Position numbers and translations under genes: made by a program. This document shows positions 10,670 through 52,797 of a DNA stretch of 64,000 bases, one piece after another. This DNA comes from Cenococcum geophilum (Eukaryota), in assembly GCA_050273025.1 (NCBI GenBank), contig CP158635.1, forward strand, positions 6,386,001-6,450,000. Direction: 5' to 3'. The notes under the pieces were generated by a model. That model made no database searches. It had not been told where the DNA came from and worked only from the letters and a program-made list of their open reading frames with translations. The first letter of the stretch is position 1, and the number at the start of each line of letters is the position of its first letter.

Positions 10670-11203
10670 TACCACTTTATGTTTAATGGTTCTAAGAATA
10701 ACAGGGCAAAATATACTATTATTCGTTATGCTCTTACCAACTATAATATTTAATTTATTATAGGCTAGAAATTTAACCTTAAAGATAAGCAAAAGGCAGA
10801 CTTTTAGGATATATTAGATATGTTACGGACGAAACCTTTATATAACCTACCCGCATTAGAACACCTTAATAGCAGTACTATACTATTAGATTTCGCTATT
10901 AGGCATTAGTAACCGAGCAACCTTAAATCTTCCCCTCGTTGCCCAGCCCTAAGCCTTATTACGTTGCTAAGACTCATTACATCATTGAGTTTTATTGCAT
11001 TGCCGCTAAGCCTTATTACGTTACTAAGCCTTATTACATTATTAAGTCTCATTACATCGCCAAGCCTTATTACGTCGCCGAGCCTTATTACATCGTTAAG
11101 TCTCATTATATTGCCGAGTCTTATTACATCGCCGTTAAGCCTTATTACGTTATCGAGCCCTATTGCATCGCCGCCGAGCCTCCTAGCCAGATTAAGCAAT
11201 TAG
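10670..11203 (+). pseudogene. RIP-decayed unknown gene fragment ending in a Ser/Pro-rich repeat tail
   Basis: De-RIPed frame reads ..IIRYALADYDIQFIMGWKFDLEDEQKADFWDILDMLRTKP.. and runs into SPSPIT-like repeats. I recognise no family. Confidence 0.35.
10947..11180. repeat. 18/21-bp tandem array, about 12 units (consensus ~GCCGAGCCTTATTACATC)
   Basis: Units are directly visible. Unit lengths are multiples of 3, which explains the overlapping ORFs listed at 10906-11307. Confidence 0.9.
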
Positions 11204-12260
11204 ACGTCGCGTATTTAACTCCTAGGCATAGCGGGTTCAATTCCCACTCGTCGCGCATTAAAAATATTAAAAATATTAAAAAAGAAGGTTGTTTTCTATT
11301 AAATTAGGCGTTAGTAAGGCTCTAAATTAAGCTCATATTTTCGTATATGTCCCGCAACGCCTAAAGTCATATATTTGACGAAATCTCAGCACTATATACT
11401 AAGCATATCGGCTCTTCTATGTTAAGTTTTAATTATATTGGGCTAGCTCTAAATTATAGCAAGAGGCAGAATGTACTATACTACTATGTTATAAAGACTT
11501 TGGAATATAATCTTATAAATTTAACTAAATTATAACCCCTTCCTAAACCTCACGATTAAACTAGATCCTTAGGGAGAGATCCCTATATTAAATCTTAGGG
11601 AACGTTCGGTTGCGACTTTAGATTAAATCTAAAGGCCGTAGAATATATCTAAGCTAAAGCTTAAATCTGATTCTAACGCGATTATTTAGTCAATCTGGCG
11701 ACTTTCTGATCCGAAAGCTCCTCTAAATCGGCAAGTGCGTTAAATTCGCAAGCTATACCGTATATAGAATCTAAATTTATAAATATAGGGTATCTCTATT
11801 ACTGTAGTGGCTACTACAGTAACGGGGGCGCCATATTTCAGTGAGTAGTTAATCTGCTATATCTCTGCCACTGTAGTAGCAAGGCACCTTAAGTTCAATA
11901 CCACGCCAAGCATTATAACTTTCTTGCAGTAACTGAGCAACCCTAAACTAAAGCGATTGTAGAACTTACTATGCTACTACGCCGTAAAGGCCCTTAGTTA
12001 TAGTCTTATGAATTTAATTAAAATATAAACACCTTCCTAAATCTAACGATTAAATATTTCTATATGCAACACTATGCCAAGGATTATAATATAGATTGCT
12101 TAGATATGGCTTTACTATAATATAACGGCTCTACGCTAATCGATTGATCTATAAGAGATTTAGGTAGTAAAATTACTGCTAAGAGTTACTGCCTAGATCC
12201 TGGCCGATAAATACCTATAACTATAATCTTAGTAAATGGCAAAAAGTATATAGCAGTACC

Positions 12261-21810: not shown

Positions 21811-22484
21811 ATACCTAAAGTAATTTCTTCTTTACACGCCCAACGTCGTGCTCGCACTATTACTGCAATATTATCTCTTAGCGAGATTATACCGTCTTCG
21901 TGTTCGCGTTGTTTAAAAGAGGGGTTAGTTTATATTGCGTTGGCGAACCTATCTTTATAATAACTATTCTCTTACTTAAAGTGCACTAAAGCGAATATTT
22001 ATTTATCCTATAACGTTTACTTTACTTCTAATGCTAAATATACGTAACCTATTACTCTTAATAGTTATCTAGTTCCCTAATTAATTTGTCTTAGGGTCTC
22101 GTATTTAATCTACTGCTATATAGCTAGATAGTAAACTGTCTTAAGCCCTTACTAAGTTAGAACGTTCTTGGGATGCGGAATAAAAGGCCTTAGATACTCG
22201 TCTGCTCGCTTGCTCCGTCTTAAGAAGGTTTATAAAAAGGTCTGTTTTAAGGAATAGAAACTTATAAAATAGGGTCTATAGGAACTTAGTAATAAAAGAA
22301 CGGATTCTCTTTTAATAGAGAAGGAAATAGATCTAAGTAGTTCAGCAACTGCTCTTCTTAGGTCCCCTTTAGGTAACTTATTCTTTAGTAATCCTTCTTT
22401 ATTAATACTACCTAACCTAATTTCTTCCGATACTCCTATACCTTTCCTATAGTATTCTTTAAATTTTTTAGTAGTTTTTAGGTA
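21811..22484 (+). pseudogene. Antisense accessory gene of A1 (Cys6 cluster + coiled coil, one intron)
   Basis: De-RIP reading: MPKVISSSHAQRRARTIAAILSLGEIMPSSCSRCSKEGLVCIAL..SSCSECTKANI.SSCDV.SASDAE, 55-nt intron, WSRIQSAA.RLDGELSQALAELERS... The end is approximate. Confidence 0.7.
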
Positions 22485-24260
22485 GTCTTAGTATAGCCTA
22501 TCTACTTAACCTTATACCATATTTTATTATTAACGTCCTTATAACTAACGATCTTTAAAACTTATTATTTATCTTCTTCCTATCCTCTATATGTATCTAC
22601 TTTATAAACCGGTGGCTTAATATTCCTGTATACTAGCTCTAGTATTGCAATATGCTATATAGGGTAGATCTTTATTTTGGCTAGTAGGTTTAACTTAAAT
22701 ATAACCAGTAAAATTCTCTATATAATTTTAAAAGGTTTTAGTCTAACGTAGTCTAACTTTTTACTTAGTTATCGACTCTTAAAATTTTTGTATAATAGCT
22801 ATACTTTATCTCCCTCCTTAAGATCTAGTCCCTTAGATTTCTTATTATTATAGTACCTTTTTATTCTCTCTTATACTTTCTTTACTAATTCTATAAGGTC
22901 TATATAAAGATTTATTAATATCTTTATCCTTTCTTTAGCTGTGCTACTTATTTTCTTCGCTTATTATAGTAATAACGATATTCTTAGCTTATACCCGTAA
23001 TTTGCCTTAAATAGTAATATACCTATTCCTTCTTAAGGTGTTGCATTATATATAAACTATATAACTAGTAATAATAATACCTAATTATTCTATGCGTAAT
23101 TAATATAGTGCCTTAAATACTATTCTAGCGTCTAATTTAATCTTTCTATTTAACCGTCTGTCTGCGGATAATATGCGGTAGAAGTTACTGCTCTAACTCC
23201 TTATTCCGCTAAGAATACCTTCTAAAATGCTACTATGAATCTTAGATCTCTATCCAATATAATCTTACTTAGTACTCTATATCTTATAAATACTTCTTTA
23301 ATATAGATTCTAGCGACATCTTCTACTAATATTTCTTCCGTACATGCTATAAAGTATCCCTACTTTATAAGCTTATCTATTATTACTAAGATCGCATTAT
23401 AATTTTGTTTAGTAATAGGATCTTTTAATTTTAGTAACTTAATAATAAAGTCCTATAATATAACCTCCTATAGTCTCTCTGGTATTTTAATAGGTTATAG
23501 CCCTCTATATAGCTTATACCTTATTAGTTTATTTCTTTAGCAATCTAAATATTCCTTAGTAATTTTTCGCGCTAAGCCCTAGATTTTATTAATAATATAC
23601 TTATTACGGACGCTTTAAGTACAATATTACGACTACTTGGGGAAGAGTTAGAAGAAGCTAGTTAGTTAATTTAGGCACAGTCTAGGATGGAGCCGGTAGA
23701 ACTATATAACAAGGAATGGTAACTGAGGTTATATAATGTGCTATATATTAAATAAGAGGAATAAGAGGAACTTACGTACCTTATATATAAGACGTATATT
23801 ACGTATAAGAAGGATTTTATAGAAGTACGGTTATGTATTTAAGGACCCTTAGTCCCTACCTAGATAGTCCCTTCCTTATAGTAATTCTTAGAATATAATT
23901 AGAGTTAATCTATTAGGCAACCACTCCACTAGTTATTATTACATTGTTAACTTTTATACTTGCATTTCCTATACACCTAGCCTATTAATAAGCCCATCGT
24001 AGTTCCTACTACAAGGTTCCGTTACACAATTACTACTACGGTTATAGTATTAATATAGAAAGTCAAATAACATGCCACCAAAAGCAGCTACCACAACGCT
24101 ATTAACGGCGGCAACTACTTTAAGGTTAAGTAACGACACTAGTATAATAGACACTAACTTATAGCAACCTATAACGGTTAGACAGCTATAAGAGATAGTT
24201 AACTAGTTAACAGAAAATAATGCGATGTTAGAAAATAGGATTAATAGAATAGGCGCAGTA

Positions 24261-27200
24261 TGTAACGGAACCTTGTAGTAAGAACTACGGTGGGCTCGTT
24301 ATTGGGCTAGGTGTGTAGGAAATGTAAGTATAAAAGTTAATAACATAATAACAACTAGTGGAGTGGTTGCCTAACAGATTAACTCCAATTATATTCTAAG
24401 AATTATTATAAGAAAGGAACTATCTAGGTAGGGACTAAGGGTCCTTAAATACATAACCATACTCCTATGAAATCCTTCTTATACGTAATGTACGTCTTAT
24501 ATATAAGGTACGTGAGTTCCTTTTATTCCTCTTGTTTAATATATAGCATATTATATAACCTTAGTTACCATTCCTCGTCATATAGTTCTATTAGCTCTAT
24601 CCTAAACCGTGCCTAAATTAACTAACTAGCTTCTTTCGTCTCTTCTCTAAGTAGTCGTAATATTATACTTAAAGCGTCCATAACACTATCTTCCTCCTCT
24701 TTATCTTCGTCCTTAAAGATTTAAAACATCTCTAAGTCGTTTACTAGAGGTGTAATATCTATCTAATTAATTTGGTTAATATTATTACTTATTATACCTA
24801 AAGTAATTTCTTTTTTATACGCCTAACGTTGTGCTCGTACTATTGCTGTAATATTATCTCTTAGTAAGATTATACTGTCTCCGTGTTCTCGTTATTCGAA
24901 AGAGGGGTTAGTTTATATTACGTTGGCGAGCCTATCTTTGTGATAACCGTCCTTTTACTTAAAGTATACTAAAGCGAATATTCGTTTATCCTGTAACATT
25001 CGCTTTACTTCTAATACTAAATATACGCGACCTATTACTCTTAATAGTTGTCTAGTTCCCTAATTAATTTGTCTTAGGGTCTTATATTTAATCTACTGCT
25101 ACGCGGCTAGATGGTAAACTATTATAAGCCCTTACTAAGTTAGAATGTTCCTGTAACACGGAATAGAAGGCTCTAGATGCTCGAATTGCGGTATCTGCTT
25201 ATTTGCTTTATCTTAAGAAGGTTTATAAAAGGGTTCATTTTAAGGAGTAGAAACTTGTGGAATAGGGTCTATAGGAACTAGGTAATAAAAGAACGGATTC
25301 TCTTCTAATAGAGAAGGAAATAGATCTAAGTAGTTTAGCAACTGCTCTTTTTAGGTCCCCCTTAGGTGACTTATTCTTTAGCGATCCTTCTTTATTAATA
25401 CTGCCTAACCTAATTTCTTCTAATACTCCTATACCTTTCCTATAGCATTCTTTAAATTCTCTAGTAGCTCCTAGGTAGTCTTAGTGTAGCCTATCCACTT
25501 AACCTTATACTATATCTTATTATTAATGTCCTTATAATTAACAATCTTTAATACTTACTATTTATCTTCTTCTTATCCTCTATATGTGTCTGCTTTATAG
25601 ACCGGTGGCTTAATATTCCTATATACTGGCTTTAGCATTATAATGTGCTGTATAGGGTAGATCTTTATTTTAGCTGGTAGGTTTAACTTAAATATAACTA
25701 GTGAAATCCTCTGTATAATTTTAAAAGGTCTTAGTTTAATATGGTCTAATTTCTTACTTAGTTATCGACTCTTAAAATTTTTATGTAGTAACTATACTTT
25801 ATCTCCCTCCTTAAGATCTGGTCCCTTAGATCTCTTAGCATTATAGTACTTTTTTATTCTCTCTTATACTTTCTTTACTAATTCTATAAGGTTTATATAA
25901 AGATTTATTAATATCTTTATTCTCTCTTTAGCTGTACTACTCGTTTTTTTTGCTTGCTATAGTAATAACAATATTCTTAGCTTATATCCGTAATTTGCCT
26001 TAAATAGTAATATACCTATTCCTTCTTAAGGTATTATATTATATATAAATTATATAACTGGTAATAGCGATACCTAATTATTTTGTGTATAATTAATATA
26101 ATACCTTAGATACTGCTCTAGCGTCTAATTTAATTTTTCCGTTTAACCATCTGTCTGTAGATAATATGCGGTAGAAGTTACTACTCGAACTCCTTACTCC
26201 GCTAAGAACACTTTCTAAAATGCTGCTATAAATCTTAGATCTCTATTCGATATGATTTTGCTTAGTACTCTATATCTTATAAACACTTCTTTAACGTAAA
26301 TTCTAGCGATATCTTCTGCTGAGATTTCTTCTGTATATGCTATAAAGTATCCCTACTTTATAAGCTTATCTACTATTACTAAGATTACATTATAATCTTG
26401 TCCGGTAATAGGGTCTTTTAATTTTAGCAACTTAATAATAAAGTCCCATAATATAACCTTCTATGGTCTCTCTAGTATTTTAATAGGTTGTAGCCCTTTA
26501 TATAGCTTATGCCTTGTTGGTTTATTCTTTTAGTAATCTAAATATTCCTTTATAACTTTTCTAGCCATCCTTTAGATTCCGTCAATGATGTACTCCTCCT
26601 AAAATCTTAACACTAAGCCCGTAGCTCTATTGTGTCCTTAGGTTAGTCCCTTATAGAAGTCTTTTACAAATTGCTCTACTATGCTTTTTAGGATATACTT
26701 TACTTCTTAATTTTCGTATATATCTATCTATAGATCTTCTAGCTATACTTCTAGAATTCTTTATACCTAAAAGCTTTTTAGTGTCTTATAGACTTTCTCT
26801 AGTTTATTATTTTCTTAAGTTGTTATAATTTTTAGATAATTATACCTAATTAATCCGTCTATATCTTTTTGTAATAAAGCCCCTAATGGCTTTTCCTTAT
26901 TTTGTAGTTTAGCTTTACGGCTTAGAGCATCTGCCTATATATTATCTGTACCTTTAGTATACTAAATCTCGAAATAGTATTCTATAAGCATCTCTGCCCA
27001 TCTAACCTATCTTTAGTTAAGTTCCTTCGTTATTAGGAATTCTATTAGGTTCTTATAATCCGTTTTAACTATAAATAGTTTCTCTATACCTTATAAGAAT
27101 GCTCTCTATTTCTTTAATACTATAACTATACCTAATAACTCCTTGTTATAGATGTTATAGTTTAACTCTAGTAGTATTATTTTCCGACTATAGTATGCTA

Positions 27201-30200
27201 CTAGGTGCTATCTATTTTAATGCCTTTATATAAAGCACGCCCCTAGTATATAGTCTAATATATCTATTTCTATAACCGTCTCTAGTCCTAGTTAATAGAT
27301 CTTAAGAACTGGCTCCTAGGTGAATAACTCTTTGATTTTTTTAAAGAGTTCTCTTTGCTCTTCTCCCTATGCCTATAGTTCTTCTTTCTTTATTAACCGC
27401 GTAAATGGCTTAATATCCTTTAACTACTACGCTATAAACCTTCTATAGTAATTGTAAAACCCTAGGAATAATCTTAACTATATAACGTTCTCTAGTTCCT
27501 GCCAATTTACTATAGCCTCGATCTTCTTTAGATCTATACTAAGTTGGCCTAGTTTAATGATAAATCTAACGAAATTGGTCTTCCTGGTGAAGAACTCGCA
27601 TTTTTTAATTGCTATTAGTATCTGTTCTTCTTATAGTCTCTTTAAAACCTATTTAACGTGTTCCCTATATTCTTCCTTAGTTATTAAGTAGATAATGATA
27701 TTATTAAGATATACTATAATAAATTTATCTAAGTATTCTCCTAATACATTGTTAATACGCTTCTAGAACGTTGCTAATGCGTTTATAAGCCTAAATTATA
27801 TAACTAATGGTTTGTATAGTCCTTCCTTTAACCTAAAGACTGCCTTTTATTTATTACCTTCCTTAATCCTAATCTAATAGTACGCCTACCTTAGATCTAT
27901 TTTTGTGAAGATTTGCGTATTACCTATCCTGTCTTAGATTTCGCTAATTAAGGGTAAAGGATACCTATTCTTTCTGGTAATGCTGTTTAACTATCTATAG
28001 TTAATATATAGCCTTAGTTTGCTATTCTTCTTTAGTATAAATAGTACTGAATAACCCGTTAATAACTGCAATGGTCTAATGTATCCCTTTTATAGATTTT
28101 CCTAAATAAACTCTTTTAACGCTCTACCCTTTTCTTTAGTAAGCTTGTAGATTGGAAAGAACTTTAGACTTGTTTTTAGTTTTAACTCTATCTTATAGTC
28201 CTATGCTATATATTCTAATAGCTTCTTACTTTTTAGTGACTATAGTTTCCTACTATACTTATGGTATCTCTTTAGTATATAACTTAGTCCTTTTTCTATT
28301 TCTTTATAGGTTGCTCCTACTTAGTACTATACTAACTTGGCTTATTATTATATCTTACGGCGTTAAGTATCTTTAATATTAACCTAACCTGTAATCTAAT
28401 TAATTCTTAGATTGTATTCCTATAACTAAGGCATACCTAATACTGCCTCGTCCCGTCTTAATGGTAGGATATTAAAAGATATCTTAATTTGTCTTCCTTT
28501 AATAATTATCTAAATAGGTCCTGTTTTAAGATTGATAATCCCTCCTCTATAGGTTATTAGGTCTCCTGAAATTGTAACTAATAAATAAGATTACTCCTTT
28601 TATTTGTGAGGTAGCCCTATTCTCTTAACTACTACTAATAAGATATGGTTTTATATTGCTCTACTATCTATTAGCACTTTAAACTGCTAATCTTACCAAT
28701 TAATCTATAAATTTAGATATTGTCCTTGAATTCCTTTAAGGGTCTGAGGCTCTACTACTAGCTCCCTTTGGTTCTATAGGCCTTTACTTTTTTTTAACTA
28801 TTAGCTACTTAATTCTAGTATACTTAGCTCGCTCTTTAGCCAATACCTAGTTCGCTTTTTATCTTTAATATGCTATAGATATATGTTTTTTAGGTATTCC
28901 TACTACTGTTGTCTATCTAAGCATTCTTCTATAAGGAATCTTTCTGGTTAAAGTGCTAAACTTCCTTTTTTTTGGATTTCTATTAGATGCTATCTATGCA
29001 TATATTTGGTATTCCTGTACTATTGCTTATTTGTTATCTAGTATATCCTTATAGGGTATTTCCAATTCTTTTTTTTAGATTTTTATGTATTTTGTATATG
29101 TTGTCTATATACGCAATTTATAATAACGTGTAGTGTACTAGGTACTTTAGGTTAACTCTTAGCTCGTTTTTGTCCTTAAGTTTAAACCTTTATTATGCTA
29201 ATCTAAATGTTATAACTTTATTCGTAGGTACTAAGATACGTCTCTCGCTTCTTTAGTCCTCTAATTGTTTTTCTAGATCCTTTAACATTATAATTAAGGC
29301 TCCTTTAATATGCGTTATGGCCTTCTCTATAATTAGGTGGTCCTAGATAACCTTTTTATCTAACCATATATAGAAATCTTCCTACTTATTATTGCGTCGT
29401 TGCCTATACTACTTTTGGTATAGCTACTGGAGTGTATACGGCCTGTCCGTAAGGAAATATCTCTTTATTACTATATTGTGACAGCCTTTAGTATATCATT
29501 CCTTAAACCTAGTAGAAATCCCTAGATCCTCTTCTTGTTCTAGTTTAGTAAGCCACTTAGCTCTTAGTATGCTTACTTTCGGCCTATTGGTAATTCTTTA
29601 TACTAGTGCTCTGTCCTTTATACGTCCTAATGTGCTAGATCTCTTATCTAGTTTCTGTTCTTACTATGCGATAATTCTTTGCCTGAACTCTTTTATGGTT
29701 TTTTTTGGTTTGTGCCTTGCGCTCTAATTCTTAAAGTTATCTTGCTTCTTAATCCTGGTATTAACTTTTTAATCTTTAGTTTGAATACTTTGTTTAACTG
29801 GTAAATCTTTTAGGTTTATATATTTGTCTCCTAATCTGATTGCTATTTGTGCCGCAGATTCTCTGATCTATAAAGAAGCTCCTTGCCTTTTGTTTATGGG
29901 TGTCCTAATTTGTACTCCGAATTCTTAACCCCTTAGGTTCTTTAATCCCGAGCTTGCTTCTGACTTAAGCTTAGCTCTAGCCTTAGTTTAACTAGGCTTA
30001 CTTAGTGTTCTTATCTCGTCTTAAGAGTCTTAAATCTTACTTATCTCGTCTTGAGAATCTTGTGCCTGTGGGAACTTCTGTCTTGAGCTTATTTGTATGT
30101 TTTTAAACTGAGCTGCTGCTCTGCTTTATTGGTTATCGTCTATTGTAGGTTTTTAAGCTTGCCTTATCTTGTTTTAAGAATCTTGGTTATCTCTTATCTC

Positions 30201-32211
30201 GCTGTAAGAATCTTAAGCCTTTGGCCTTTTGCCTTTATTAAGTGCCGAAGTGGTTTACTGTTCTACTTCTCTTATATCTTGCGAAGCGATAGATATTGTG
30301 TCTAGTGGGGTTTTAATCCTAACTAATGTTCTTTATTCTGTAATAGAATTATCCTCTACCTCTAGTATAATATCTCTAAGGTCTACTTGCTTCTAGTAAG
30401 CGGCCCTTATTGCCTTATTGTTACGGAATGTTTTATTTAGGTTAAATTTATTATCTTTAATGTCCGATTTGTGAACTAGTTCGTTAGTTCCTCTATATCC
30501 TATAGGTGCTGGCTTTTATAGCTAATAGCTTGCGCCGTACTTGGCGTCCTTATGAATTTAGTATGCGTTATTATAATAAAACGTAAAACTTCTAATTAAA
30601 TACTCTTTTGTTCTTCGCAGTATATTATTATCCCTTTATATGTGTATATTATCTACTAATCTTATGCCTTTTACTACGTGGTGACTCTACCTACTTCTAT
30701 AGTCTCTAACGTAATAACCCTATTTTTTATAATTTATATAAGCTCCTTTTTTAAACCATTTTTCTTATTATAGGGTCTGCCTGAATGTCTTCTACTGTTA
30801 AGATCCCTGATTTAGCCTCTACTCCTTAGACCTTTAATTACTTAATCCTTGTCCTTTAGGTTTTTATAGTTTGCTCTATTTCTTATAGGCTTCTTTAGTA
30901 CTACTTAGGTCTATTGGCTCTACGCCGTACTATAGTTTCTGACTTAGCTTTTATTGTTGCGTACTTTGCGCCTTATACAACTATAGAACTCTATCCTGGC
31001 CTCTCTTAGCCTATTCCCTTTGGTAGATCTAATTATTAATCTTAATCGCCTAATCTATTAGATTCTTTAGGGTGTCCGTATCTTCTATTAGGATAATTAC
31101 GTCCTAGACTTTAGCCTTAAGTCCCTATTTATACTGTGCCATAAGCGCCCTATTATTTTACTCTACTTGTGTTGCTAGTGTCTGGAACTATGTTGTATAC
31201 TTAATTGCTAAAGTTTATTGTATAAGGTTCTGGAGTTTTCTTTCCGCTATAGTTGTTTCTTCTAGGTCTCTAAATATCTGCGTTAGTTGTTTTATAAATC
31301 CTTCCTAACTTAAGAATATAAATCGCATGTCTTAGTTAGTGGTTATTATTCCGTTCGCCTATATCTCTATAAGGTAAGGTTTAAACTACTTAAGTGCTTT
31401 TCCTGATAAGAATAGTCCTGTATAGGCTATCCGATCCACAGGTATAGGTAACTTTACTCCCTCCTATAAGACCTTAAAGTGTATCTGTATAAGGAATCCT
31501 TTAAGCTTTAACCTCTCTCCTATAAATCTCTTAATTAATAGTAGCTTGATTTTTACTGCTCCTATCCTATTAAGTCTTTTTTCTAATACTGTATTGTTAG
31601 CTGTTAGCTAGTTAACTATTTCCTATAGCTATCCAACCGTTACAGGTTGCTGTAAGTTAGTATCCGCCATACTAGTGTCACCTCCTGTCCTTAAAGTAGT
31701 TGCTGCTGTTAATGGCGTTATGGTGGCTGCTTTTAGTGGCATATTGTTCAACTTCTTATATTAATACTATAACTAGGTAGTGATTGTGTAACAGAACCTT
31801 GTAGTAAGAACTACGGTAGGCTTATTATTGGGCTAGGTGTATAGGAAATGTAAGTATAAAAGTTAATAACGTAATAATAACTGGTGGAGTGGTTGCCCAA
31901 TAGATTAACTTTAATTATATTCTGAGAATTACTATAAGGAAGGAACTATCTAGGTAGGGACTAAGGGTCCTTAAATACACAACCGTACTCCTATAAAATC
32001 CTTCTTGTATATAATGTACGTCTTATATATAAGGTACGTAAGTTCCTCTCGTTCCTCTTGTTCAATACGTAGCATATTATGTGACCTTAGTTACCATTCC
32101 TCATCACATAGTTCTATTGGCTCTATCCTAAACCGTGCCTAAATTAACCAACTAGCTTCTTCCGTCTCTTCTCTAAGTAGTTGTAATATTGTACTTAAAG
32201 CGTCCGTAACA
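24261..32211 (-). mobile_element. Ty3/gypsy chromovirus, family A copy A3 (innermost, uninterrupted, 7,951 bp; inserted in the A2 gag)
   Basis: LTRs at 24,261-24,685 and 31,787-32,211; TSD CAGTA at 24,256-24,260 and 32,212-32,216. gag ATG at 31,742, protease ~28,670, RT ~27,700, integrase ~26,000-26,650, chromodomain ~25,450-25,580. The A2 gag frame (GAV|KVKL) resumes after it. Confidence 0.96.
24794..25477 (+). pseudogene. Antisense accessory gene of A3 (Cys6 cluster + coiled coil, one intron)
   Basis: Homologous to 21,811-22,484, with the same 55-nt intron-like segment at 25,022-25,076. Confidence 0.7.
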
Positions 32212-35200
32212 CAGTAAAGGTTAAGTTACTATTAATTAAAAGATTCTTAGGAGAGAAATTAAAGCTTAAAGGATTCCTTATATAAATGCACTTTAAGGTC
32301 GCGCAAGAGGGAGTAAAGCTAGCAATATCTATAGATTAAATAGCGTATATAGGATTGTTCTTAATAGGAAGAGCACTTAAATAGTTTAAGCCTTACCTTA
32401 TAGAAATCTAGGCAAATGGAATAATAACTATAAACCAAGAGGTACGGTTTATATTCTTAAGCTAGAATAAATTCGTAGAGCAACTTATATAAATGTTTAG
32501 AGACCCAAAGGTAGTAACTACGGCAGAAAGAAAACTCTAAGATATTACGCAACGAACTTTAGCAATTAAGTACATAACGTAGTTCTAGACGTTAGCGACG
32601 TAAATAAAGTAAAATAATAGGGCGCTTATAGCACAGTATAAACAGGGACTTAAGGCTAAAGTCTAGGACGTAATTATCCTAATAAAAGATGCGGATACTC
32701 TAAGGGAACTAATAAATTAAGTAATTAAGATTAACAATTGGATCTACTAAAGGGAACAGGCTAAGAGAGGCTAGGATAGAGTTCTATAGTTATATAAGGC
32801 GCAGAGTACGCAACAACTAAAGCTAAGTTAAAAACTATAGTATAGCGCGGAGCCAATAGACCTAAGTAGTACTAAAAAAGCCTATAAGAGATGGAGCAAA
32901 CGACTATGGAAACCCAGAGGATAAGGATTAAGTAATTAGAGGTCTAGGGAGCAGAGGCTAAACTAGGGATCTTAATAGTAGAAGACGTTTAGGCGAACTC
33001 TATAATAAGAAAAATAGTTTAAAAAGGAAGCTTATATAAATTGCGGAAAATAAGGTTACTATATTAAAGACTATAAAAGTGGGCAGAGTTACTACGTAGT
33101 AAAAGGGATAAGACTAGTAGACGACATATACGTATAGAGGGACGATAATATACTACAAGGAACAAAAGAATGTTTAATTAGAAGTTTTGTGTTTTATTAT
33201 AATAACGCATGCCGAATTTATAAGGACGCTAAGTATAGTGTAAGCTATTAGCTATAGGAGCTATATTTAGCAGAATATAAAGGAACTAATAAACTAGCTC
33301 GCAGATTGGATATTAAGGACAATAAATTTAATATAGGTGAAGTATTTCGTGATAATAAGGTAATAAAGGCGGTTTACTAGGAACGCGTAGCCATTAGAGA
33401 TGTTATACTAGAGGTAGAGGATAATTCCACTATAGAATAGGGAACATTAGTAGGGATTAAGACCCCACTAGATATGATGTCTATCGCTTTATAAGACGCA
33501 AGAGAAGTAGGACAGTAAGCCACTTTGGCACTTAATAAAGGTAAAAGGCTAAAAGCTTAAGACTCTTATAACGAGATATGAGATAACTAAGATTCTTAAG
33601 ACAAGATAAGGCAAGCTTAAGGACCTATAATAGATAATAACCAATGGAGCAGAGTAATAGCTTAGTTTAGTAACATATAAATAAGCTTAGGACGAAGTTT
33701 CCTAAAGATATAAGACTCTTAAGACGAGATAAGAACACTAAGTAAGCCTAGTTAGACTAAGGCTAGAGCTAAGCTTAAGATAGAAGTAAGCTTAGGATTA
33801 AAGAATTTAAGGGGTTAAGAATTTGGAGTATAAATAAGGACACCTACAAGTAAGAGGTAAGGGGCTTCTTTATAGATTAGAGAATCTGTAATATAAATAG
33901 TAGTTAGACTAGGAGACAGATATATAGACCTAGAGGACTTACTAGGGGAACACAGTATTCGGCCTAAAGATTAAAATGTTAATACCAAGATTAAGAAGTA
34001 AGAAGACTTTAAGGATTAATCTATAAGACGTAAACTAAAAGAAACTATAGAAGAGTTTAGGTAAAGAATCATTGCATAGTAAGAACAGAAACTAGATAAG
34101 AGATCTAGTATATTAGGATATATAAGGGATAGAGCGCTAGTACAAAGAATTACTAATAGGCCTAGGGTAGGCATACTAAGAGCTAAGTGGCTTACCAAAC
34201 TAGAAAACGAAGAGGATTTAGGAATTCCTACTAGGTTTAAAGAATAATATATAAAGGGCTGTTACAACGTAGTAATAAGAAAATACTTCCTTACGGATAA
34301 GCTGTATATACTCTAACAGCTGTACTAAAAGTGGTATAGATAGCGATACAATAACGAGTGGGAAGATTTCTATATATAGTTGGATAAAAAAGTTATTTAG
34401 GACTACCCGATTATAGAGAAGGCCATAAGTTATATTAAAGGAGCCTTAATTATAATATTAAAGAATCTAGAGAAATAATTAGAGGACTAGAGAAGCGAGA
34501 GACATATCTTAGTACCTGTAAATAAAGTTATAACGTTTAGATTAGTATAATAAAGGTTTAAACTTAAAGGTAAAGACGAGCTAAGAGTTAACCTAAAGCA
34601 CCTGGCATATTATACGCTATTATAGATTATATACGTAGACGATATATATAAGATATATAAGAATCCAAAAGAAAAGAATTGGAAATACCCTATAAGGATA
34701 TACTAGATAATAGATAAGTAATAATATAGGAATGCTAAATATATATATGGATAGCATCTAGCAAAAGTCTAAAAGGAAGGGAATTTAATACTTTACCCAG
34801 GAAGATTTCTTATAGAAGAATACTTAAATAGATAATAGTAGTAGGAATGCCTAGAAAATACATATCTATAGCATATTAAAGATAAAAAGCGAACTAGGTA
34901 TTGGCTAAAGAATAAGCTAAGTGTATAAGGATTAAGTAGCTAATAGTTAAGAAAAGTAGAGGCCTACGGGACTAGAGGGAGCTAGTAGTAGAGCCTTAGA
35001 CCCTTAAAGGAATTTAAGGATAATACCTAAATTTACGAGTTAAATGGCAAGATTAGCAGTTTAAAGCGCTAATAGATAGTAGAGTAACGTGGAACTATAT
35101 CTTACTAGCAGCAGTTAAGAGAATAGGGCTACCTTATAGATAGAAGGAGTAATCTTACCTATTAATTACGATTTTAGGAGATCTAATAACCTATAGAGGA

Positions 35201-38200
35201 GGGATTATTAATCTTAAAATAGGACCTATTTAAATAATTATTAAAGGAAGATAAATTAAGATATCTTTTAATATCCTACTATTAGGACGGGATAAGGCAG
35301 TATTAGGGATACCTTAGTTATAGGAATATAATCTAAAGATTAATTAGATTATAGGTTAGGTTAATATTAAGAATACTTAACGCCGTAAGATATAATAATA
35401 AGCTAAGTTAGTATAGTACTAAGTTAGAGTAATATACGAAGAGACTAAGTAAGGCTTAAGTTATATACTAAAGAAATACTATAAGTATAGTAAGAAACTA
35501 TAGTTACTAGAAAGTAAAAAGCTATTAGATTATATAGTATAGGACTATAAGATAGAATTAGAACTAAGAATAAGTTTAAAGTTTTTTCTAATCTATAAGC
35601 TTACTAAAGAAGAAGGTAGAGCACTAAAAGAGTTTATTTAGAAGAACTTATAAAAGGGATATATTAGACTATCATAGTTATTAGTGGGTTATCCAGTACT
35701 ATTTATACTAAAGAAGAATGGTAAACTAAGGCTGTATATTAACTATAGATAGTTAAACAGCATTACTAGAAAGGATAGGTATCCTTTACCCTTAATTAGC
35801 GAAATCTAAAACCGGATAGGTAACGCGTAAATCTTTATAAAGATAGATCTAAAATAGGCGTACTATTAGATTAGGATTAAGGAAGGCAATAAATAAAAAG
35901 CAGCCTTTAGGTTAAAGGAAGGACTATATAAACTATTAGTTATATAATTTAGGCTTATAAATGTACTAGTAATATTCTAGAAGCGTATTAATAATATATT
36001 AGGAGAATACTTAGATGAATTTATTATAGTATATCTTAATAATATTATTATCTACTTAATAACTAAGGAAGAATATAGGGAATATATTAAATGGGTTTTA
36101 AAGAGACTATAAGAGGAATAGATGCTAGTAGCAATTAAAAAATGCGAGTTCTTTATAAGAAAGACTAATTTTATTAAATTTATTATTAAACTAGGCTAAC
36201 TTAGTATAGATCTAAAGAAGATTAAGGCTATAGTGAATTAATAAGAACTAGAGAATATAATATAGTTAAGGTTATTTCTAGGGTTTTATAATTACTGTAG
36301 AAGGTTTATAGCGTAATAGTTAAAGGATATTAAGCTATTTACGCGGTTAATAACGAAAGAAGAACTATGGGCATAGAGAGAGAAATAGTAGAAATTATTT
36401 AAAGAAATTAAGAGATTGTTTACCTAGGAGCCAGTTCTTAAGATCTATTAACTAGGACTAGAGACGGTTATAGAAATAGATATATTAGACTATATACTAG
36501 GGGCGTACTTTATATAGAAATATTAAGATAGATAGCGTCTAGTGGCATATTATAGTTAGAAGATAATACTACTAGAGTTAAACTATAGCATCTATAATAA
36601 GGAGTTATTAGGTATAGTTATAGTACTTAAAAAATAAAAAGCATTCTTATAAGGCATAGAGAAACTATTTATAGTTAAGATAGATTATAAGAACCTAATA
36701 GGATTTCTAATAATAAAGAAACTTAACTAAAGATAGGTTAGATAGGCAGAGATGCTTATAGAATACTATTTTAAGATTTAGTATACTAAGGGTATAAATA
36801 ATATGCGAGTAGACGCTCTAAGTTAAAAAGCTAAACTATAAAATAATGAAAAGTTATTAGGGGCTTTACTACGAAAAGACATAGATGGATTAATTAGGTA
36901 TAACTATCCAAAAATTGTAGCAACTTAAGAAGGTAATAAACTAGAGAAAGTTTACAAGATACTAAAAAGCTTTTAGGTATAGAGAATTCTAAAAGCATAG
37001 CTAAAAGATCTATAGACGGATATATACGAAAATTGAGAAGTAAAGTATATCCTAAGAAGTATAGCAGAGTAGTTTATAGAGGACTTCTATAAGGGACTAA
37101 CTTAAGGATATAATGGGGCTACGGGCTTAGTGTTAAGACTCTAGGAGGAGTATATTATTAATAGAATTTAGGGCTTAGCGCGAAAAGTTATAAAGGAATA
37201 TTTAAATTGCTAAAGGAATAAACTAATAAGGTATAAGCTATATGGAGGGCTATAACCTATTAAAATACTAGAGAGACCATAGGAGGTTATATTATAGGAC
37301 TTTATTATTAAGTTACTAAAGTTAAGAGATCCTATTACCAGATAAGATTATAATGTAATCTTAGTAATAGTAAATAAGCTTATAAAGTGGGGATACTTTA
37401 TAGCATATATAGAAGAAATTTTAGCGGAAGATGTTGCTAGAATTTATATTAAAGAAGTGTTTGCAAGATATAGAGCACTAAGTAAAATTATATTGGATAG
37501 AGATCTAAGATTTATAGCAGTATTCTGGGAGGTATTTTTGGCGGAATAAGGAGTTTAAGTAGTAACTTTTACCGTATATTATTTATAGACAGACGGTTAA
37601 ACGAAAAGATTAAATTAGACGCTAGAATAGTATTTAAGGCATTATATTAATTATGCATAGAATAATTAGGTATTGCTATTACTAGTTATATAGTTTATAT
37701 ATAATATAATACCTTAAGAAGAAACAGGCATATTACTATTTAAGGCAAATTATAGATATAAGCTAAGAATATCGTTGTTACTATAGTAAGTAAAGAAAAT
37801 AAGTAGTATAGCTAAAGAAAGAATAAAGACGTTAATAAATCTTTATATAGACCTTATAGAATTAATAAAGAAATAATAAAAGAGAATAAAAAGGTACTAT
37901 AATACTAGGAGATCTAAGGGACTAGATCTTAAGGAGGGAGATAAAGTATAGCTACTATATAAAAATCTTAAGAGTTAACGACTAAGTAAGAAGTTAGACT
38001 ACGTTAGACTAGGACCTTTTAAAATTACGTAAAGGATTTCACCAGTTATATTTAAATTAAACCTACTAGCTAAAATAAAGATCTACCCTATATAGTATAT
38101 TGTAATACTAGAGCTAGTATATAGGAATATTAAGCCACTAGTCTACAAAGCAGACATGTATAGAGGATAAGAAGAAAATAAATAGTAAGTTTTAAAGATT

Positions 38201-38259
38201 ATTAGTTATAAGGACATTAATAATAAAATATAGTACGAGGTTAAGTAAATAGGCTATAC

Positions 38260-38970
38260 TAAGACTACCTAGGAACTACTAGAAAATTTAAAGAACGCTA
38301 TAAGAAAGGTATAGGAGTATTGGAAGAAATTAGGTTAGGCAGTATTAATAAAAAAGGATTACTAAAGAATAAGTTACCTAAGGGGGACCTAAGAAGAGCA
38401 GTTGCCGAACTACTTAGATCTATTTCCTTCTCTATTAGAAGAGAATCCGTTCTCTTATTACCAAGTTCCTATAAACCTTATTCTATAAGTTTCTACTCCT
38501 TAAAACGGACCTTTTTACGAACCTTCTTAAGATAGATTAACCAAGCGAATACCACAAGACGAGATTTAAGGGCCCGTTGTTAAGCATTGGCAGCCTCTTA
38601 TTTAGTATTACGGAAATAGCGCAACTCCGCCAAAGTAACAGACAGTTTATTATCTAGCTACGTAGCAGTAGATTAAATATAAAACCCTAAAACAAATTAA
38701 TTAGGGAACTAGACGGCTATTAAAAGTAATAGGTTGCGTATATTTAGTATTAGAAGTAGAGCGAACGTTATAGGACGAATAAATATTTACTTTAGTGCAC
38801 TTTAAGTAAGAGAACGGTTGTCGCGAAGATAGACTTACTAACGTAATATAAACTAATTTCTTTTTTAAATAACGAGAATATGGAGACGGTATAATCTTAC
38901 TAAGAGATAATATTATAGCAATAGTGTGAGCACGACGTTGGGCATATAAGAAAGAAATTACTTTAGGCAT
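38260..38970 (-). pseudogene. Antisense accessory gene of A2 (Cys6 cluster + coiled coil, one intron)
   Basis: Its exon 1 forms the 5' part of track ORF 38701..38970 (MPKVISFLYAQRRAHTIAIILSLSKIIPSPYSRY..), which retains the ATG. Exon 2 is 7 codons longer than in A3. Confidence 0.7.
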
Positions 38971-41900
38971 AATAAGTAATAATATTAACTAAATTAATTA
39001 GACGGATATTATACCTCTAGTAAATAACTTAGAGATATTTTAAATCTTTAAGGATAAAGATAAAGAGGAGGGAGATAGTATTATAGATGCTTTAAGTATA
39101 ATATTATAACTACTTAGGGAAGAGTCGGAAGAAGCTAGTTAGTTAATTTAGGCACGGTCTAAGATGGAGCTAGTAAAACTATATAACGAGGAATAGTAAC
39201 TAAGGTTATATAATATACTATATATTAAATAAGAGAAATAAAAGGAACTTACGTACCTTATATATAAGACGTATATTATATATAAGAAGGATTTTATAAG
39301 AGTATGGTTATATATTTAAGGACCCTTAGTCCCTACTTAGATAGTTCCTTCCTTATAGTAATTCTTAGAATATAATTAGAGTTAATCTATTAGGCAACTA
39401 CTCCACTAGTTATTATTACGTTGTTAACTTTTATACTTACATTTCCTACACACCTAGCCTATTAATGAGCCTATCGTAGTTCCTGCTATAAGGTTCCGTT
39501 ACAATACTCCTCCTAAAGTCTTAACACTAAACCCGTGGCTCTATTATATTCTTAAGTTATTCCTTTATAGAAATCTTCTATAAATTATTTTGCTATACTT
39601 CTTAGGATATACTTTACTTCTTAGTTTTTATATATATCCGTCTATAGATCTTTTAGCTATACTTTTAGAATTCTTTATACCTAAAAGCTTTTTAGTAACT
39701 TATAAACTCTTTCTAGTTCTTCCTAAGTTATTATAATTTTTAGATAATTATACCTAATCAATCCATCAGTGTCTTTTCGTAGTAAAGCCCCTAATAGCTT
39801 TTCATCGTTTTATAGTTTAGCCTTTTAACTTAGAGCGTCTACTTATATATTATCTATACCCTTAATATATTAAATCTCAAAATAGTATTCTATAAGCATC
39901 TCTGCCCATCTAACCTATCTTTAATTAAGTTTCTTTATTATTAGGAATCCCGTTAGGTTCTTATAATCTATCTTAACTATAAATAGTTTCTTTATACCTT
40001 ATAAGAATGCTTTTTATTTCTTAAGTACTATAACTATACCTAATAACTCCTTGTTATAAATGTTATAGTTTAACTCTAATAGTATTATCTTTTAACTATA
40101 GTATGCCACTAGGTGCTATCTATTTTAATATTTTTATATAAAGCACGCCCCTAGTATAAAGTCTAATATATTTATTTCTATAACTATCTCTAATCCTAGT
40201 TAATAGATCTTAAGAACTAGCTCCTAGGTAAATAACTCTTTAACTTTTTTAAATAATTCCTACTGTTCCTTTCCCTATACCTATAGTTCTTCTTTCTTTA
40301 TTAATCGCGTAAATAGTTTAATATCCTTTAACTATTGCGCTATAAACTTTCTATAGTAATTATAAAACCCTAAAAATAATCTTAACTGCGTAATGTTCTC
40401 TAGTTCTTACTAATTTACTATAACCTTAATCTTTTTCGGATCTATACTAAGTTAGCCTAGTTTAATAATAAATTTAATAAAATTAGTCTTCTTAGTAAAG
40501 AACTTATATTTTTTAATTGCTATTAGTATCTGTTCTTCTTATAGTCTCTTTAAAACCTATTTAACATATTCCTTATATTCTTCCTTAGTTATTAAATAGA
40601 TAATAATATTATTAAAATATACCATAATAAATTTATCTAAGTGTTCTCTTAATATATTGTTAATACGCTTTTAAAATATTACTAGCGCGTTTATAAGCCT
40701 AAATTATATAACTAATAGTTTATATAGTCCTTTCTTTAACCTAAAGGCTACCTTTTATTTATTTCCTTCTTTAATTCTAATCTAATAGTACGCCTATCTT
40801 AGATCTATCTTCGTAAAGATTTATACGTTACCTATCCTATCTTAGATTTTGCTAATTAAGGGTAAAGGATATTTATCCTTTTAAGTAATGCTGTTTAACT
40901 GCCTATAGTTAATATATAGTTTTAGTTTACCATTTTTCTTTAGTATAAACAGTACTGGATAACCCGTTAATAACTATAATAGTCTAATATATCCCTTTTA
41001 TAAGTTTTCTTAAACAAACTCTTTTAATACTCTACCTTCTTTTTTAGTAAGCTTATAGATTAGAAAGAACCTTAGACTTATTTCTAGTTCTAACTCTATT
41101 TTATAGTCCTATGCTATATAATTTAACAGCTTTTTACTTTTTAGTAACTATAGTTTCTTGCTATACTTATAGTATCTCTTTAGTACGTAACTTAGTCCTT
41201 TCTCTATTTCTTTATAGGTTGCTTCTACTTAGTACTATACTAACTTAGTTTATTGTTATATCTTATAGCATTAAGTATTTTTAATATCGACTTAACCTAT
41301 AACCTAATTAATCTTTAGATTGTATTCCTGTAACTAAGGCATTCCTAGTACTGCCTTATTATTCCCTAATAGTAATATATTAAAAGACATTTTAATCTAT
41401 CTCCTTTTAATAGTTAACTAAATAGGTCCTGTTTTAAGATTAATAATGCCTCCTCCGTAGGCTATCGGATCTCCTAAAATTATCACTAATAGGTAAGAGT
41501 ACTCCTTTTTCCTATATAGTAATCCTATTCTTTTAACTGCTACTAGCAAGATATGGTTCCTTATTACTCCACTATTTATTAGTGCCTCGAACTATTAATC
41601 TTGCTATTTAATTTATAAATTTAAGTGTTATCCTTAAATTCCTTTAAGGGTTTAAGGCTCTACTACTAGTTCCCCCTAGTCCTATAGGCCTCTACTTTTC
41701 CTAACTATTAGCTGCTTAATCCTATTTATACTTAGTCTACCTTTAGCTAATACTTAGTTCGCTTTTTATCTTTAATATACTATAGACACGTGTTCTCTAG
41801 GCACTCCTACTACTATTATCCGTCTAAGTATTCTTCTATAAGGAATCTTCCTGGTTAAAGTATTAAGTCCCCTTAGCTTTATACTTCTATTAGGTGCTAA

Positions 41901-44900: not shown

Positions 44901-45525
44901 ATATATAATGTACGTCTTATACATAAGGTACGTAAGTTCCTCTCATTCCCCTCGTTTAATACGTAGCATGTTATGTGACCTTAGTTACTATTCTTCGTCA
45001 CATAGTTCTATCGGCTCTATCCTGGACCGTGCCTAAATTAACCAACTAGCTTCTTCCGACTCCTCTCCAAGTAGTCGTAACATTGTACTTAAAGCGTCCG
45101 TAATATAAGGGATATTATTGCGGACACCTTGGGTTGCCCTTAGGACAACCCCCAGACGCCCCTTGGATGGTCGCCGGTCACGTGACGGAGGCACGTGCCC
45201 GTAGTATATAGTCTCCACAATCCCAGAGGCCTTACCTCCTTAAGGATTCGTCTCTCTTACCAATCTATCCTATTCCACAATCGTGTCCTTATAGCCCCCT
45301 ATCTATAAGATCCCCTTATAGTATCCTAGGTAGAAAATCTAATAGTAAGATTAATAGATTCCGTTAAACATTTCTCCTATAACCCCTCTTATCTCCTATA
45401 TTTTCTAGTAACGATTAAATATATTCTATAAGCTAACTTATACTAAATATTAGGTGTAGTTACTCGCGTATATATAGACTTACTATTAAGTAAGCAAGCT
45501 AAGCTAGAAAGTCTTAGCTTGCTAG

Positions 45526-51600: not shown

Positions 51601-52618
51601 CTAATTTCGCTTCTCAATAGGTTTTACACCTTTATGGATGGCCGCAATTCCTCCCGTCAAGTCCTCCCATCCCTTACCCGGCACCAGGAATCCAGCGTCC
51701 TTTATCATGTCTCTGAATTCAGTCTGGCTGGGAAATCTCTCGATACTCTCGACTAAGTACTGGTAACTATCCCTATCGCCAGCTACCAATTGTCCGATTA
51801 ACGGAATAGCTCCGAAGCTCCAGTGCTTGTACAATGCGTCAAATAGTGAATTATTAACTTTGCTGAACTCGAGGCACGCAAACACACCACCCGGTTTTAG
51901 GACGCGGAATGCCTCGCGTAAAGCGGCGTCTTTATTGGTGAAGTTTCGAATGCCGAATGCGACGGTGTAGAGATCGACGGTGTTATCAGGGACTGTCGTG
52001 AGATCCTCTGCGTTGGCTTCCATGAATGTTAGGCGTGGTGAGCGGGCATATGGTGTTTCTAAAGCCCTTTTTCGACCCTCTGCTAGCATATCGGGGTTGA
52101 TATCGGCAACAGTGACGCGGGTGTGGACGTCATTGTTGATATTTGAGGCATGATCAAGCATGCGGAAGGCGATGTCGCCAGTGCCACCAGCAATATCAAG
52201 AATATTCCAACCTTGGGCCATAGGCGAAGGGAATGTGAGGGGATTGGAGCCAGGGTTGAGGTTGCGGACGAAGTGATCTTTCCAAAGGCGATGGATTCCT
52301 AGCGACATGAGATCATTCATAGTATCGTAGGAAGAAGCGACTGAGGAGAAGACGGCGCCGACTGAGGTATTATTAGTCACTGTATAAGCAGAGATGGACT
52401 TATAAGCTACCCTTCTGCTCCTTCAAGGCCTCCGCTATTGTCTCGAATCCAAAGTGTGTTGTTTTCGGCGCATCTTGACCGGGTGGAGGCGAGGTGTTCT
52501 GCTGTTGGGCATTCTGTATTGAGGAAGAGAAGCACCGGTATGGTTCTCTCCTCGCGGTTGGCCATGCGCTCCGAAAGAATTGACGTCTCGCAAGAAGTTT
52601 CGCTGTGGCGCCACTCAT
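51601..52618 (-). CDS. COQ5: Mitochondrial 2-methoxy-6-polyprenyl-1,4-benzoquinol C-methyltransferase (UbiE/COQ5)
   Basis: Exons 52,618-52,411 and 52,361-51,601 with a GT-AG intron at 52,410-52,362. Motifs THFGFET, VFSSVASSYDTMNDLMSLGIHRLWKD, LDIAGGTGDIAF, YTVAFGIRN, SYQYLVESI. Arg/Ser-rich presequence. Confidence 0.97.
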
Positions 52619-52797
52619 ATTGAAGCTGTTCGAGAGGTAGTTGGTAATGCTTGGCAGCGAGCAAGGAACGGCTGACATCAAGGTCCAAAGCGCCTCGATG
52701 GGCCGATGCCAACCGGGAACCGAGCTCTTCCATTGATGCTTTCCCCAAACTTTATACTCCACGCCTGCCTCACTTCCAACATGCAACTAGCTACACC
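52619..52797. promoter_or_regulatory. Compact divergent (bidirectional) promoter region
   Basis: Only 179 bp separate the head-to-head ATGs at 52,618 (-) and 52,798 (+). Confidence 0.65.

What the first reader, a model, noticed from the sequence alone, without database searches (positions are those of the whole stretch)
24794..25477. Spliced antisense accessory gene (Cys6 zinc cluster + coiled coil) carried by all three gypsy-A copies
Seen: between the PPT and the chromodomain, each copy has an opposite-strand gene starting ~110 bp from the 3' LTR. Exon 1 de-RIPs to C-x2-C-x6-C...C-x2-C-x8-C, a Zn(II)2Cys6-like spacing. A 55-nt segment ([G>A]TACG..CTAAT..TAG) must be removed to join it in frame to a heptad-rich exon 2. 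A2 differs from A3 by exactly 7 codons in the coiled coil, which suggests selection on the protein. An intron can persist in a retroelement when it is antisense to the genomic RNA. Inference: an LTR-driven, element-encoded DNA-binding regulator or anti-silencing factor. Caveat: the donor G is A in all three copies; it lies in a TpG RIP target.
Basis: partly seen in the sequence, partly recalled or inferred. Interest (0 to 1): 0.7.

Follow-up and report, generated by a model that had tools for sequence, protein, structure and literature searches.

The report
Spliced antisense gene overlapping retrotransposon pol
A fungal jumping-gene family carries, backwards inside the extended end of its polymerase gene, a real spliced gene for a small six-cysteine, long-helix protein that probably regulates the element, although the copies in this stretch have been killed by the fungus's repeat-mutation defence.

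Summary
The gene is real; its function is untested. All three RIP-damaged Gypsy/chromovirus copies carry it. The GT donor survives in 5 of 544 genomic matches, and each Cys site reads only Cys or Tyr in 70 copies. Three un-RIPped relatives encode a 197-209 aa product (C-x2-C-x6-C-x13-C-x2-C-x8-C, long helix, acidic tail) with the same 55-nt intron and dN/dS 0.06-0.23. RNA contigs from 3 of 4 runs skip that intron exactly.

Corrections: the stop is at 25445, not 25477, and the 7-codon indel is not specific evidence.

Two additions. (1) The pol frame runs on 284-303 codons past the chromodomain, across the whole antisense gene and PPT into U3, in 3 of 3 intact elements. It is kept stop-free but evolves near-neutrally over exon 2. 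(2) A second, alternatively spliced intron removes the first start codon.

Zn_clus and DUF3716 matches stay below cut-off, and DNA binding is not shown. The closest known case is brtn of Botrytis Boty elements (homology untested). This scan has noted such genes before (69 notes, at least 11 genomes). Verdict: new variant of a known kind.

The parts
24261..32211 (-). Inner, youngest Gypsy/chromovirus copy (7.95 kb), RIP-damaged; target-site duplication CAGTA
   Evidence: all 38 LTR-LTR differences are transitions
24261..24685 (-). 3' LTR; its U3 end faces the antisense gene and is the likely antisense promoter; holds tandem ACGT-core repeats
   Evidence: an RNA contig of the least-mutated copy begins about 20 nt inside the LTR (contig ends do not prove a start)
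24686..24705 (-). Polypurine tract, read through by the pol frame
   Evidence: sequence; pol tail translation of intact relatives
24750..24803 (+). Upstream, alternatively spliced intron (54 nt, GT..AG) containing a 3-codon uORF and the first start codon
   Evidence: RNA joints in runs X3 and X12, retained in X1 and in one X3 contig; donor 44 nt before ATG1 in 3 of 3 intact elements; P0155 N-terminus matches the join
24794..25022 (+). Antisense exon 1: start (ATA here), basic helix, second start at 24872 (ATA here), C-x2-C-x6-C-x13-C-x2-C-x8-C at 24884-24994 (2 of 6 Cys left in this copy)
25023..25077 (+). 55-nt intron; donor reads AT here, GT in rare copies and in intact relatives
25078..25445 (+). 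Antisense exon 2: long helix, acidic Ser/Pro/Thr-rich tail; stop at 25443-25445; last 23 nt overlap the chromodomain end
24565..25422 (-). Pol C-terminal extension: the pol frame continued past the chromodomain over the whole antisense gene and PPT to a stop inside U3 (broken by RIP stops here)
   Evidence: intact L073 pol residues 22-1421 align in one piece to 28782-24568
25423..28782 (-). Pol body: protease, RT, RNase H, integrase, SH3-like domain, chromodomain (RIP-damaged)
   Evidence: (domains on intact L073)
38298..38970 (-). Antisense gene of the middle copy (long 21-nt form, ATG kept, intron 38741-38687)
21811..22452 (+). Antisense gene of the outer copy (intron 22040-22094; frameshifting deletion in exon 2)

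Best explanation
Shown: intact members of this chromovirus family carry a selected antisense gene with a 55-nt intron. It encodes a 197-209 aa protein with six Cys, a long helix and an acidic tail. Every copy examined in this genome is dead through RIP, though one is still transcribed and spliced. The gene lies wholly under an extended pol reading frame, and an upstream intron that holds the first ATG is spliced in some RNAs and retained in others. Inferred: the transcript starts in the U3 end of the 3' LTR, and the introns persist because they are antisense to the RNA that is reverse-transcribed. The protein binds two zinc ions, pairs through the helix and acts as the element's own Gal4-style regulator on LTR DNA or chromatin, with the acidic tail as an activation surface. 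Splicing of the upstream intron would switch between a long form (with the basic N-terminal helix) and a 25-30 residue shorter form. The pol extension is kept free of stops mainly for the sake of the genomic RNA (for example to avoid decay triggered by a long 3' UTR), not for its amino acids. Confidence: 0.97 that the gene is real; the figure below is for the regulator mechanism.
For: Conserved GT-AG intron and Cys6 motif in 3 of 3 intact elements. dN/dS 0.06-0.23 in exon 1 and 0.14-0.22 in exon 2. In exon 2, where the two strands' codon phases differ, changes pile on antisense third positions (39/118 vs 14 and 15; 57/118 vs 19 and 31; 57/122 vs 28 and 30). Exact splice joints with 0 mismatches in RNA contigs of three studies, confined to about L034 1153-2018. 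An independent spliced product, P0155, has all six Cys. 183 relatives at E<=0.001, many starting at the same Met. Atlas first hit 0.92 is a 77-member ascomycete cluster automatically named 'Zn(2)-C6 fungal-type domain-containing protein' (a lead only). Weak Zn_clus and DUF3716 matches. Helix 98-199 is mostly at pLDDT above 90. The tail has 7-12 D/E against 2-4 K/R. The pol tail stays stop-free in only 28-152 of 4000 neutral simulations, with dN/dS 0.75-1.06 over exon 2.
Against: There is no functional data. Zn_clus is below cut-off in all four sequences where it hit, and P0155 did not hit it at all. The Cys3-Cys4 loop is 13 residues, one more than the recalled canonical maximum. L073 and L074 have K-E-G-L-V between Cys2 and Cys3, lacking the lysines that read CGG in Gal4 (Gal4 recalled). 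The cluster modelled at pLDDT 46-67. The only raw-read run had no reads on the gene (about 12 in 100 of the run read). No DNA run was laid as a control. The transcribed copy L034 has no ATG and two stops, so its RNA shows splicing, not a protein. Only three intact elements, all related, were available. The pol-only part of the tail (U3, PPT, leader) shows dN/dS 0.27-0.50 on 64-67 codons, which does not fit a wholly neutral tail.
Confidence: 0.45

Rival explanations
1. Counter-defence factor acting through proteins or RNA: the Cys cluster is a structural zinc domain and the helix a binding rod that blocks RNAi, heterochromatin or RIP targeting of the element, without sequence-specific DNA binding.
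For: Base-reading lysines are not conserved. The best Pfam match is DUF3716 over nearly the whole model (E 6e-4), not Zn_clus. The host is strongly RIP-competent.
Against: No likeness to a known suppressor was found. The family was RIP-mutated in all 70 copies examined, so any protection was incomplete.
Confidence: 0.22
2. Host-phenotype modifier: like REP9-1, a DUF3716 gene in a Zymoseptoria DNA transposon, the protein changes host development in a way that favours the element's spread.
For: Sub-threshold DUF3716 match in 2 of 3 intact exons at E<0.01. REP9-1 and REP9-2 contain DUF3716, and REP9-1 expression lowers pycnidia number (PMC8232023, abstract and three passages).
Against: Direct homology to REP9-1 was not tested. 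The match is below the 22-bit cut-off. No phenotype data exist for this family.
Confidence: 0.12
3. Replication-cycle cofactor or limiter: the protein, or the antisense RNA itself through pairing with the pol tail, acts on particle assembly, nuclear import, integration targeting or copy number.
For: The antisense RNA is complementary to about 860 nt of the genomic RNA and overlaps the chromodomain end. A review proposes such roles for antisense aORFs (PMC7264820, passages).
Against: Purifying selection acts on the amino acids, including six Cys, so an RNA-only role is insufficient. There is no evidence of contact with Gag or integrase.
Confidence: 0.16
4. The antisense frame is only a shadow of a functional Pol C-terminal extension.
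For: The pol frame is open through the region in 3 of 3 intact elements, and in exon 1 both frames share third codon positions.
Against: Over exon 2 the pol frame has dN/dS near 1 while the antisense frame has 0.14-0.22. GT-AG splicing occurs on the antisense strand. The tail has no family match, and its end shifted by a 2-nt insertion in L074.
Confidence: 0.03

Closest known systems
[quoted passage not shown] 2011, PMID 21802103; paper not held, seen only through citing passages in PMC7264820, PMC8365987, PMC4227169)
   Same: Antisense gene between pol and the 3' LTR of a chromodomain-bearing fungal Gypsy element; function unknown.
   Different: Homology was not tested (no BRTN sequence on hand). 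Whether brtn has a Cys6 cluster, introns or a covering pol frame could not be read. Here a Cys6 motif, two introns and full overlap by pol are shown.
Gal4-type Zn(II)2Cys6 binuclear cluster regulators (Pfam PF00172)
   Same: Six Cys with x2, x6, x2, x8 spacings, followed by a long helix and an acidic tail.
   Different: Loop of 13 residues; below the Pfam cut-off; recognition lysines absent in this subfamily; about 200 aa with no middle homology region; helix of about 70-100 residues.
DUF3716 (PF12511) proteins REP9-1 and REP9-2 of the Zymoseptoria tritici REP9 DNA transposon (PMC8232023)
   Same: Small transposon-borne protein; exon 1 matches profile positions 3-59 of 59 at E 6e-4.
   Different: The score of 20.1 is under the 22-bit cut-off. 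REP9 is a Class II element. No direct comparison was made.
Antisense aORFs of plant Ty3/gypsy elements (Grande gene23, RIRE2, Retand; PMC7264820) and retroviral antisense genes driven from the 3' LTR (HTLV, same review)
   Same: Position, orientation, presence in most copies, antisense promoter near or in the 3' LTR.
   Different: No sequence relation is known or was tested. The word 'intron' does not occur in that review's main text.

Membership tests
Ty3/Gypsy chromovirus | LTRs with TG..CA ends, 5-bp TSD, gag, PR-RT-RH-IN order, C-terminal chromodomain | tested here: met
   TSD CAGTA and LTR ends; Pfam domains including Chromo on intact L073, which aligns to the window copy
Antisense aORF between pol and 3' LTR (brtn kind) | ORF on the strand opposite gag-pol between chromodomain and 3' LTR, in most copies | tested here: met
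   (158 copies span the region)
Antisense aORF between pol and 3' LTR (brtn kind) | Transcribed on the antisense strand | tested here: met
   GT..AG joints read on the antisense strand in 3 of 4 runs; strand is inferred from the splice ends, since contigs carry none
brtn family proper | Sequence homology to BRTN | not testable with these tools
   paper not held; no brtn in two supplementary files of PMC8365987
Gal4-type Zn(II)2Cys6 (PF00172) | Six invariant Cys in two C-x2-C-x6..8-C halves | tested here: met
   motif in 3 of 3 intact elements and P0155
Gal4-type Zn(II)2Cys6 (PF00172) | Pfam Zn_clus score at or above 21 bits | tested here: not met
   14.3-17 bits in L034, L073, L074, L122; no hit for P0155
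Gal4-type Zn(II)2Cys6 (PF00172) | Cys3-Cys4 loop of 5-12 residues and basic recognition residues between Cys2 and Cys3 (pattern recalled, from no call) | tested here: not met
   loop is 13; SKEGLV and AKEGLV in L073/L074; AEKKLV in L122 keeps basic residues
Gal4-type Zn(II)2Cys6 (PF00172) | Binuclear cluster fold | tested here: inconclusive
   pLDDT 46-67 over the cluster; fold searches returned nothing or only long helices
Gal4-type Zn(II)2Cys6 (PF00172) | Zinc binding and sequence-specific DNA binding | not testable with these tools
   needs bench work
DUF3716 (PF12511) | Pfam score at or above 22 bits | tested here: not met
   20.1, 18.6 and 12.2 bits; near miss over the whole model

The most novel reading that the evidence does not exclude
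A lineage of fungal chromoviruses has a retrovirus-like, dual-coded 3' end. An LTR-driven antisense gene encodes the element's own zinc-cluster trans-regulator and is switched between two protein forms by splicing out its own start codon. On the other strand, Pol carries a ~290-residue extension that ends inside U3 and is itself needed, for RNA stability or through its acidic end.
Probability: 0.3. Interest if true: 0.78.

Novelty: new variant of a known kind. Interest (0 to 1): 0.52.

Why it matters
LTR retrotransposons are usually taken to need only gag and pol, and the role of their antisense extra ORFs is an open question (PMC7264820). This family gives a testable case: a defined, spliced, selected protein with a regulator-like build, natural intact sequences, and a candidate target (the LTR with its subfamily-specific ACGT repeats). 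The full overlap with pol means that annotation tools see one long pol ORF and miss the gene, and that in-frame indels there cannot be credited to one strand.

Tried and rejected
- Pfam on the window copy itself: no relevant hit.
- Word-index search with exon 1 of L034: 0 of 159 candidates scored.
- IMG/VR scan: one weak match (L153, 41 residues, no retroelement context), taken as chance.
- PDB sequence searches: nothing convincing. C2H2 hits rest on a short shared motif; PPR1 (a Zn2Cys6 protein) scored only E 0.16.
- Foldseek: no match at E<=0.001. VIA-align listed only generic long helices, Z<=8.
- A second AlphaFold model of exon 1 from 51 mostly RIP-damaged sequences did not fold the cluster.
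- Homodimer prediction with zinc: no verdict, score 0.12, no evidence either way.
- Atlas search with the pol tail: no usable hit.
- Alignment A3 misaligned exon 2 on exon 1 and was dropped.
- The 7-codon indel as proof of selection on the antisense protein: rejected, because it is one event and in frame on both strands.
- The heptad signal (0.64-0.65 hydrophobic at best a/d vs 0.42 overall) is best-of-seven without a null and was not relied on.
- The intron and leader show no length variation in 158 copies, so they could not test the pol frame separately.
- Literature searches for a Cys6 antisense gene or a pol overlap gave 0, 0, 0, 1 unrelated listing and 0 papers. The library lacks most subscription journals, so this does not show absence from print.
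- A search of the scan's notes for the pol-into-U3 overlap found none with all words.

Full report
SETTING. The window comes from a 178-Mb, seven-contig genome with a strong RIP signature over most of its length (TpA/ApT 1.4-1.9 in repeats, about 0.7-1.0 around host genes). Three copies of one LTR element are nested. The outer copy spans 21281-45105 (TSD TAAGG), the middle one about 23602-39503 on the other strand, and the inner one 24261-32211 (TSD CAGTA). All 38 differences between the inner copy's LTRs are transitions. An intact relative carries gag, protease, RT, RNase H, integrase, SH3-like and chromo domains and aligns along the window copies, so this is a Ty3/Gypsy chromovirus. The family is large: one 22-nt site gave 544 exact matches.

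THE OBSERVATION. The proposed start lies 109 nt inside the 3' LTR edge. In 32 copies the proposed frames carry the fewest stops of the three + frames in both exons. The donor pattern reads GT in 5, AT in 539 and CT/TT in 0 matches, so G is the only alternative allele. The third Cys codon, lost in all 32 copies first fetched, survives in 34 pattern matches. In 70 copies, partly chosen for these motifs, each of the six sites is Cys or Tyr and nothing else. None of the 70 has a stop-free antisense frame (minimum 2 stops, median 8), and one copy, L034, keeps all six Cys and the GT. The ORF ends at 25443-25445, a stop in 69 of 69 copies that cover it and the end point of un-RIPped proteins, not at 25477. 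The 21-nt difference is a subfamily polymorphism (38 of 70 short). The outer window copy has a frameshifting deletion.

RNA. Twenty of 24 listed runs hold at least half of the words of the L034 stretch; four were laid. In the three contig runs, from three studies, a contig with no mismatch to L034 skips exactly the 55-nt segment with GT..AG ends on the strand opposite gag-pol. These contigs span about 1153/1210 to 1913-2018, and depth falls to zero just beyond, which fits a discrete transcript better than DNA. The one raw-read run had 31 partial reads, all in the LTR and none on the gene (about 12 in 100 of the run read). No DNA run was laid as control. L034 has no ATG at either start and two stops, so this RNA shows splicing of a pseudogene, not a protein.

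INTACT RELATIVES. A profile of exon 1 found 183 proteins at E<=0.001. The 150 listed are mostly RIP-damaged reading frames of many subfamilies, often starting at the same Met. A metagenome scan returned 80 of 141 loci; three (L073, L074, L122) are un-RIPped elements with gag of 968-1001 aa and a long pol frame. All three have the 55-nt GT-AG intron and give 197, 209 and 201 aa products with C-x2-C-x6-C-x13-C-x2-C-x8-C. P0155, a database protein that reads straight across the junction, matches them. Pairwise dN/dS is 0.06-0.23 in exon 1 and 0.14-0.22 in exon 2, similar to integrase/chromodomain at 0.08-0.20. Only three related elements underlie these numbers.

ADDITION 1: THE GENE LIES UNDER POL. 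L034 shows a 177-codon sense frame running through the PPT (0 of 2000 shuffles). In 3 of 3 intact elements it is the end of pol: the frame continues 284-303 codons past the chromodomain and stops 109-139 nt inside the 3' LTR. L073 pol residues 22-1421 align in one piece to window 28782-24568. In exon 1 the two frames share third positions. In exon 2 they do not, and there changes fall on antisense third positions, which are pol second positions, giving dN/dS 0.75-1.06 for the pol frame. So the antisense protein is the selected one. Yet the tail is kept open: redrawing synonymous codons of the antisense gene leaves it open in 13-76 of 5000 trials, and applying the observed divergence in 28-152 of 4000. 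The pol-only part shows dN/dS 0.27-0.50 on 64-67 codons, confounded by cis signals. A 2-nt insertion in L074 changes the last residues. Net length of exon 2 is a multiple of three in 149 of 158 copies, against 106 of 158 in the LTR beyond the pol stop. This shows frame constraint but not which strand imposes it, which is why the 7-codon argument is not specific. The tail has no convincing Pfam match and no usable Atlas hit. That it protects the genomic RNA from decay is inference. An earlier scan note mentions an overlap with the pol tail (e1-7825760).

ADDITION 2: AN INTRON THAT REMOVES THE START. RNA of X3 and X12 also skips a 54-nt GT..AG intron (window 24750-24803) that contains the first ATG. 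X1 retains it in a contig that splices the 55-nt intron, and X3 holds both forms. The donor lies exactly 44 nt before the first ATG in all three intact elements, and the N-terminus of P0155 reads as the upstream exon joined at that intron. The intron would be 54, 56, 56 and 58 nt in the four subfamilies if the first AG is used, so the upstream exon has no fixed frame and is leader. After splicing, the first ATG is the one 3-4 codons before Cys1, giving 167-179 aa forms. Which form is made in vivo is unknown.

WHAT THE PROTEIN IS LIKE. AlphaFold gives a confident helix (residues 98-199 of P0155) and an unresolved Cys region. Zn_clus hits at 14.3-17 bits (cut-off 21) and DUF3716 at up to 20.1 bits (cut-off 22) over almost its whole model. 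The Atlas places P0155 next to ascomycete clusters, the first automatically named Zn(2)-C6 (a lead). The loop is 13 residues, and the window's subfamily lacks the lysines that Gal4 uses on DNA (Gal4 details recalled). It is built like a minimal Gal4-type regulator but fails membership by score and pattern. DUF3716 also occurs in REP9-1 and REP9-2 of a Zymoseptoria DNA transposon, where REP9-1 lowers pycnidia number (PMC8232023: abstract and three passages).

COMPARISON AND NOVELTY. An antisense gene at this place is known as brtn in Boty elements. I saw only citing passages: PMC7264820 (12 passages), PMC8365987 (4 passages and a search of two supplementary files) and PMC4227169 (2 passages). 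The original paper is not held, so its content on introns, cysteines or overlap is unknown to me and homology is untested. The lead came from earlier scan notes, which record such genes in 69 findings from at least 11 genomes, several in this genome. These are not independent evidence. Five literature searches found no paper describing a Cys6 antisense gene or the pol overlap, within a library that lacks most subscription journals.

VERDICT. The gene is real (0.97) and dead in all copies examined here. Its most likely role is a self-encoded regulator (0.45). New variant of a known kind; interest 0.52.

Noticed in passing
window 21281-45105: Three copies of the same family are nested inside one another (outer minus, middle plus, inner minus), each inserted into the coding region of the one before.
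   Followed up: yes
L034 900-1800 (G000:C7, about 816000-816800): Only the U3 and antisense-gene part of this copy is lightly RIP-mutated (GC 0.44-0.49 against 0.33-0.38 on both sides), and it is the copy matched exactly by spliced RNA. A ~3-kb insertion interrupts its pol. Why RIP spared this part is unexplained.
   Followed up: partly
window 24466-24560; L074 3701-3800; L122 6946-7050: U3 holds tandem ACGT-core repeats whose unit and number differ by subfamily (3 to 8 cores): candidate enhancer sites for either strand's promoter.
   Followed up: partly
L074 and L122: Both intact elements are assembled as circularly permuted contigs with one LTR, which may reflect collapsed repeats or one-LTR circles.
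   Followed up: no
window 51604-62701: Host gene island: COQ5/UbiE methyltransferase (51604-52422, minus), dehydrogenase E1 component (53606-54415, plus), a low-complexity frame with sub-threshold pentapeptide hits (54983-55900, minus), ubiquitin hydrolase (61589-62701, minus).
   Followed up: partly
window 10927-11307: Degenerate 18-21-nt tandem repeat array with a 126-codon open frame and no Pfam hit.
   Followed up: no
window 45100-45746 and 48167-49693: A 175-nt inverted repeat pair 297 nt apart (MITE-like), and a 119-nt direct repeat pair 1408 nt apart at 97% identity (possible small LTR element).
   Followed up: no
P0047, P0071: Some related subfamilies read through the main intron in frame, so its length, and the phase relation to pol, may differ between families.
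   Followed up: no
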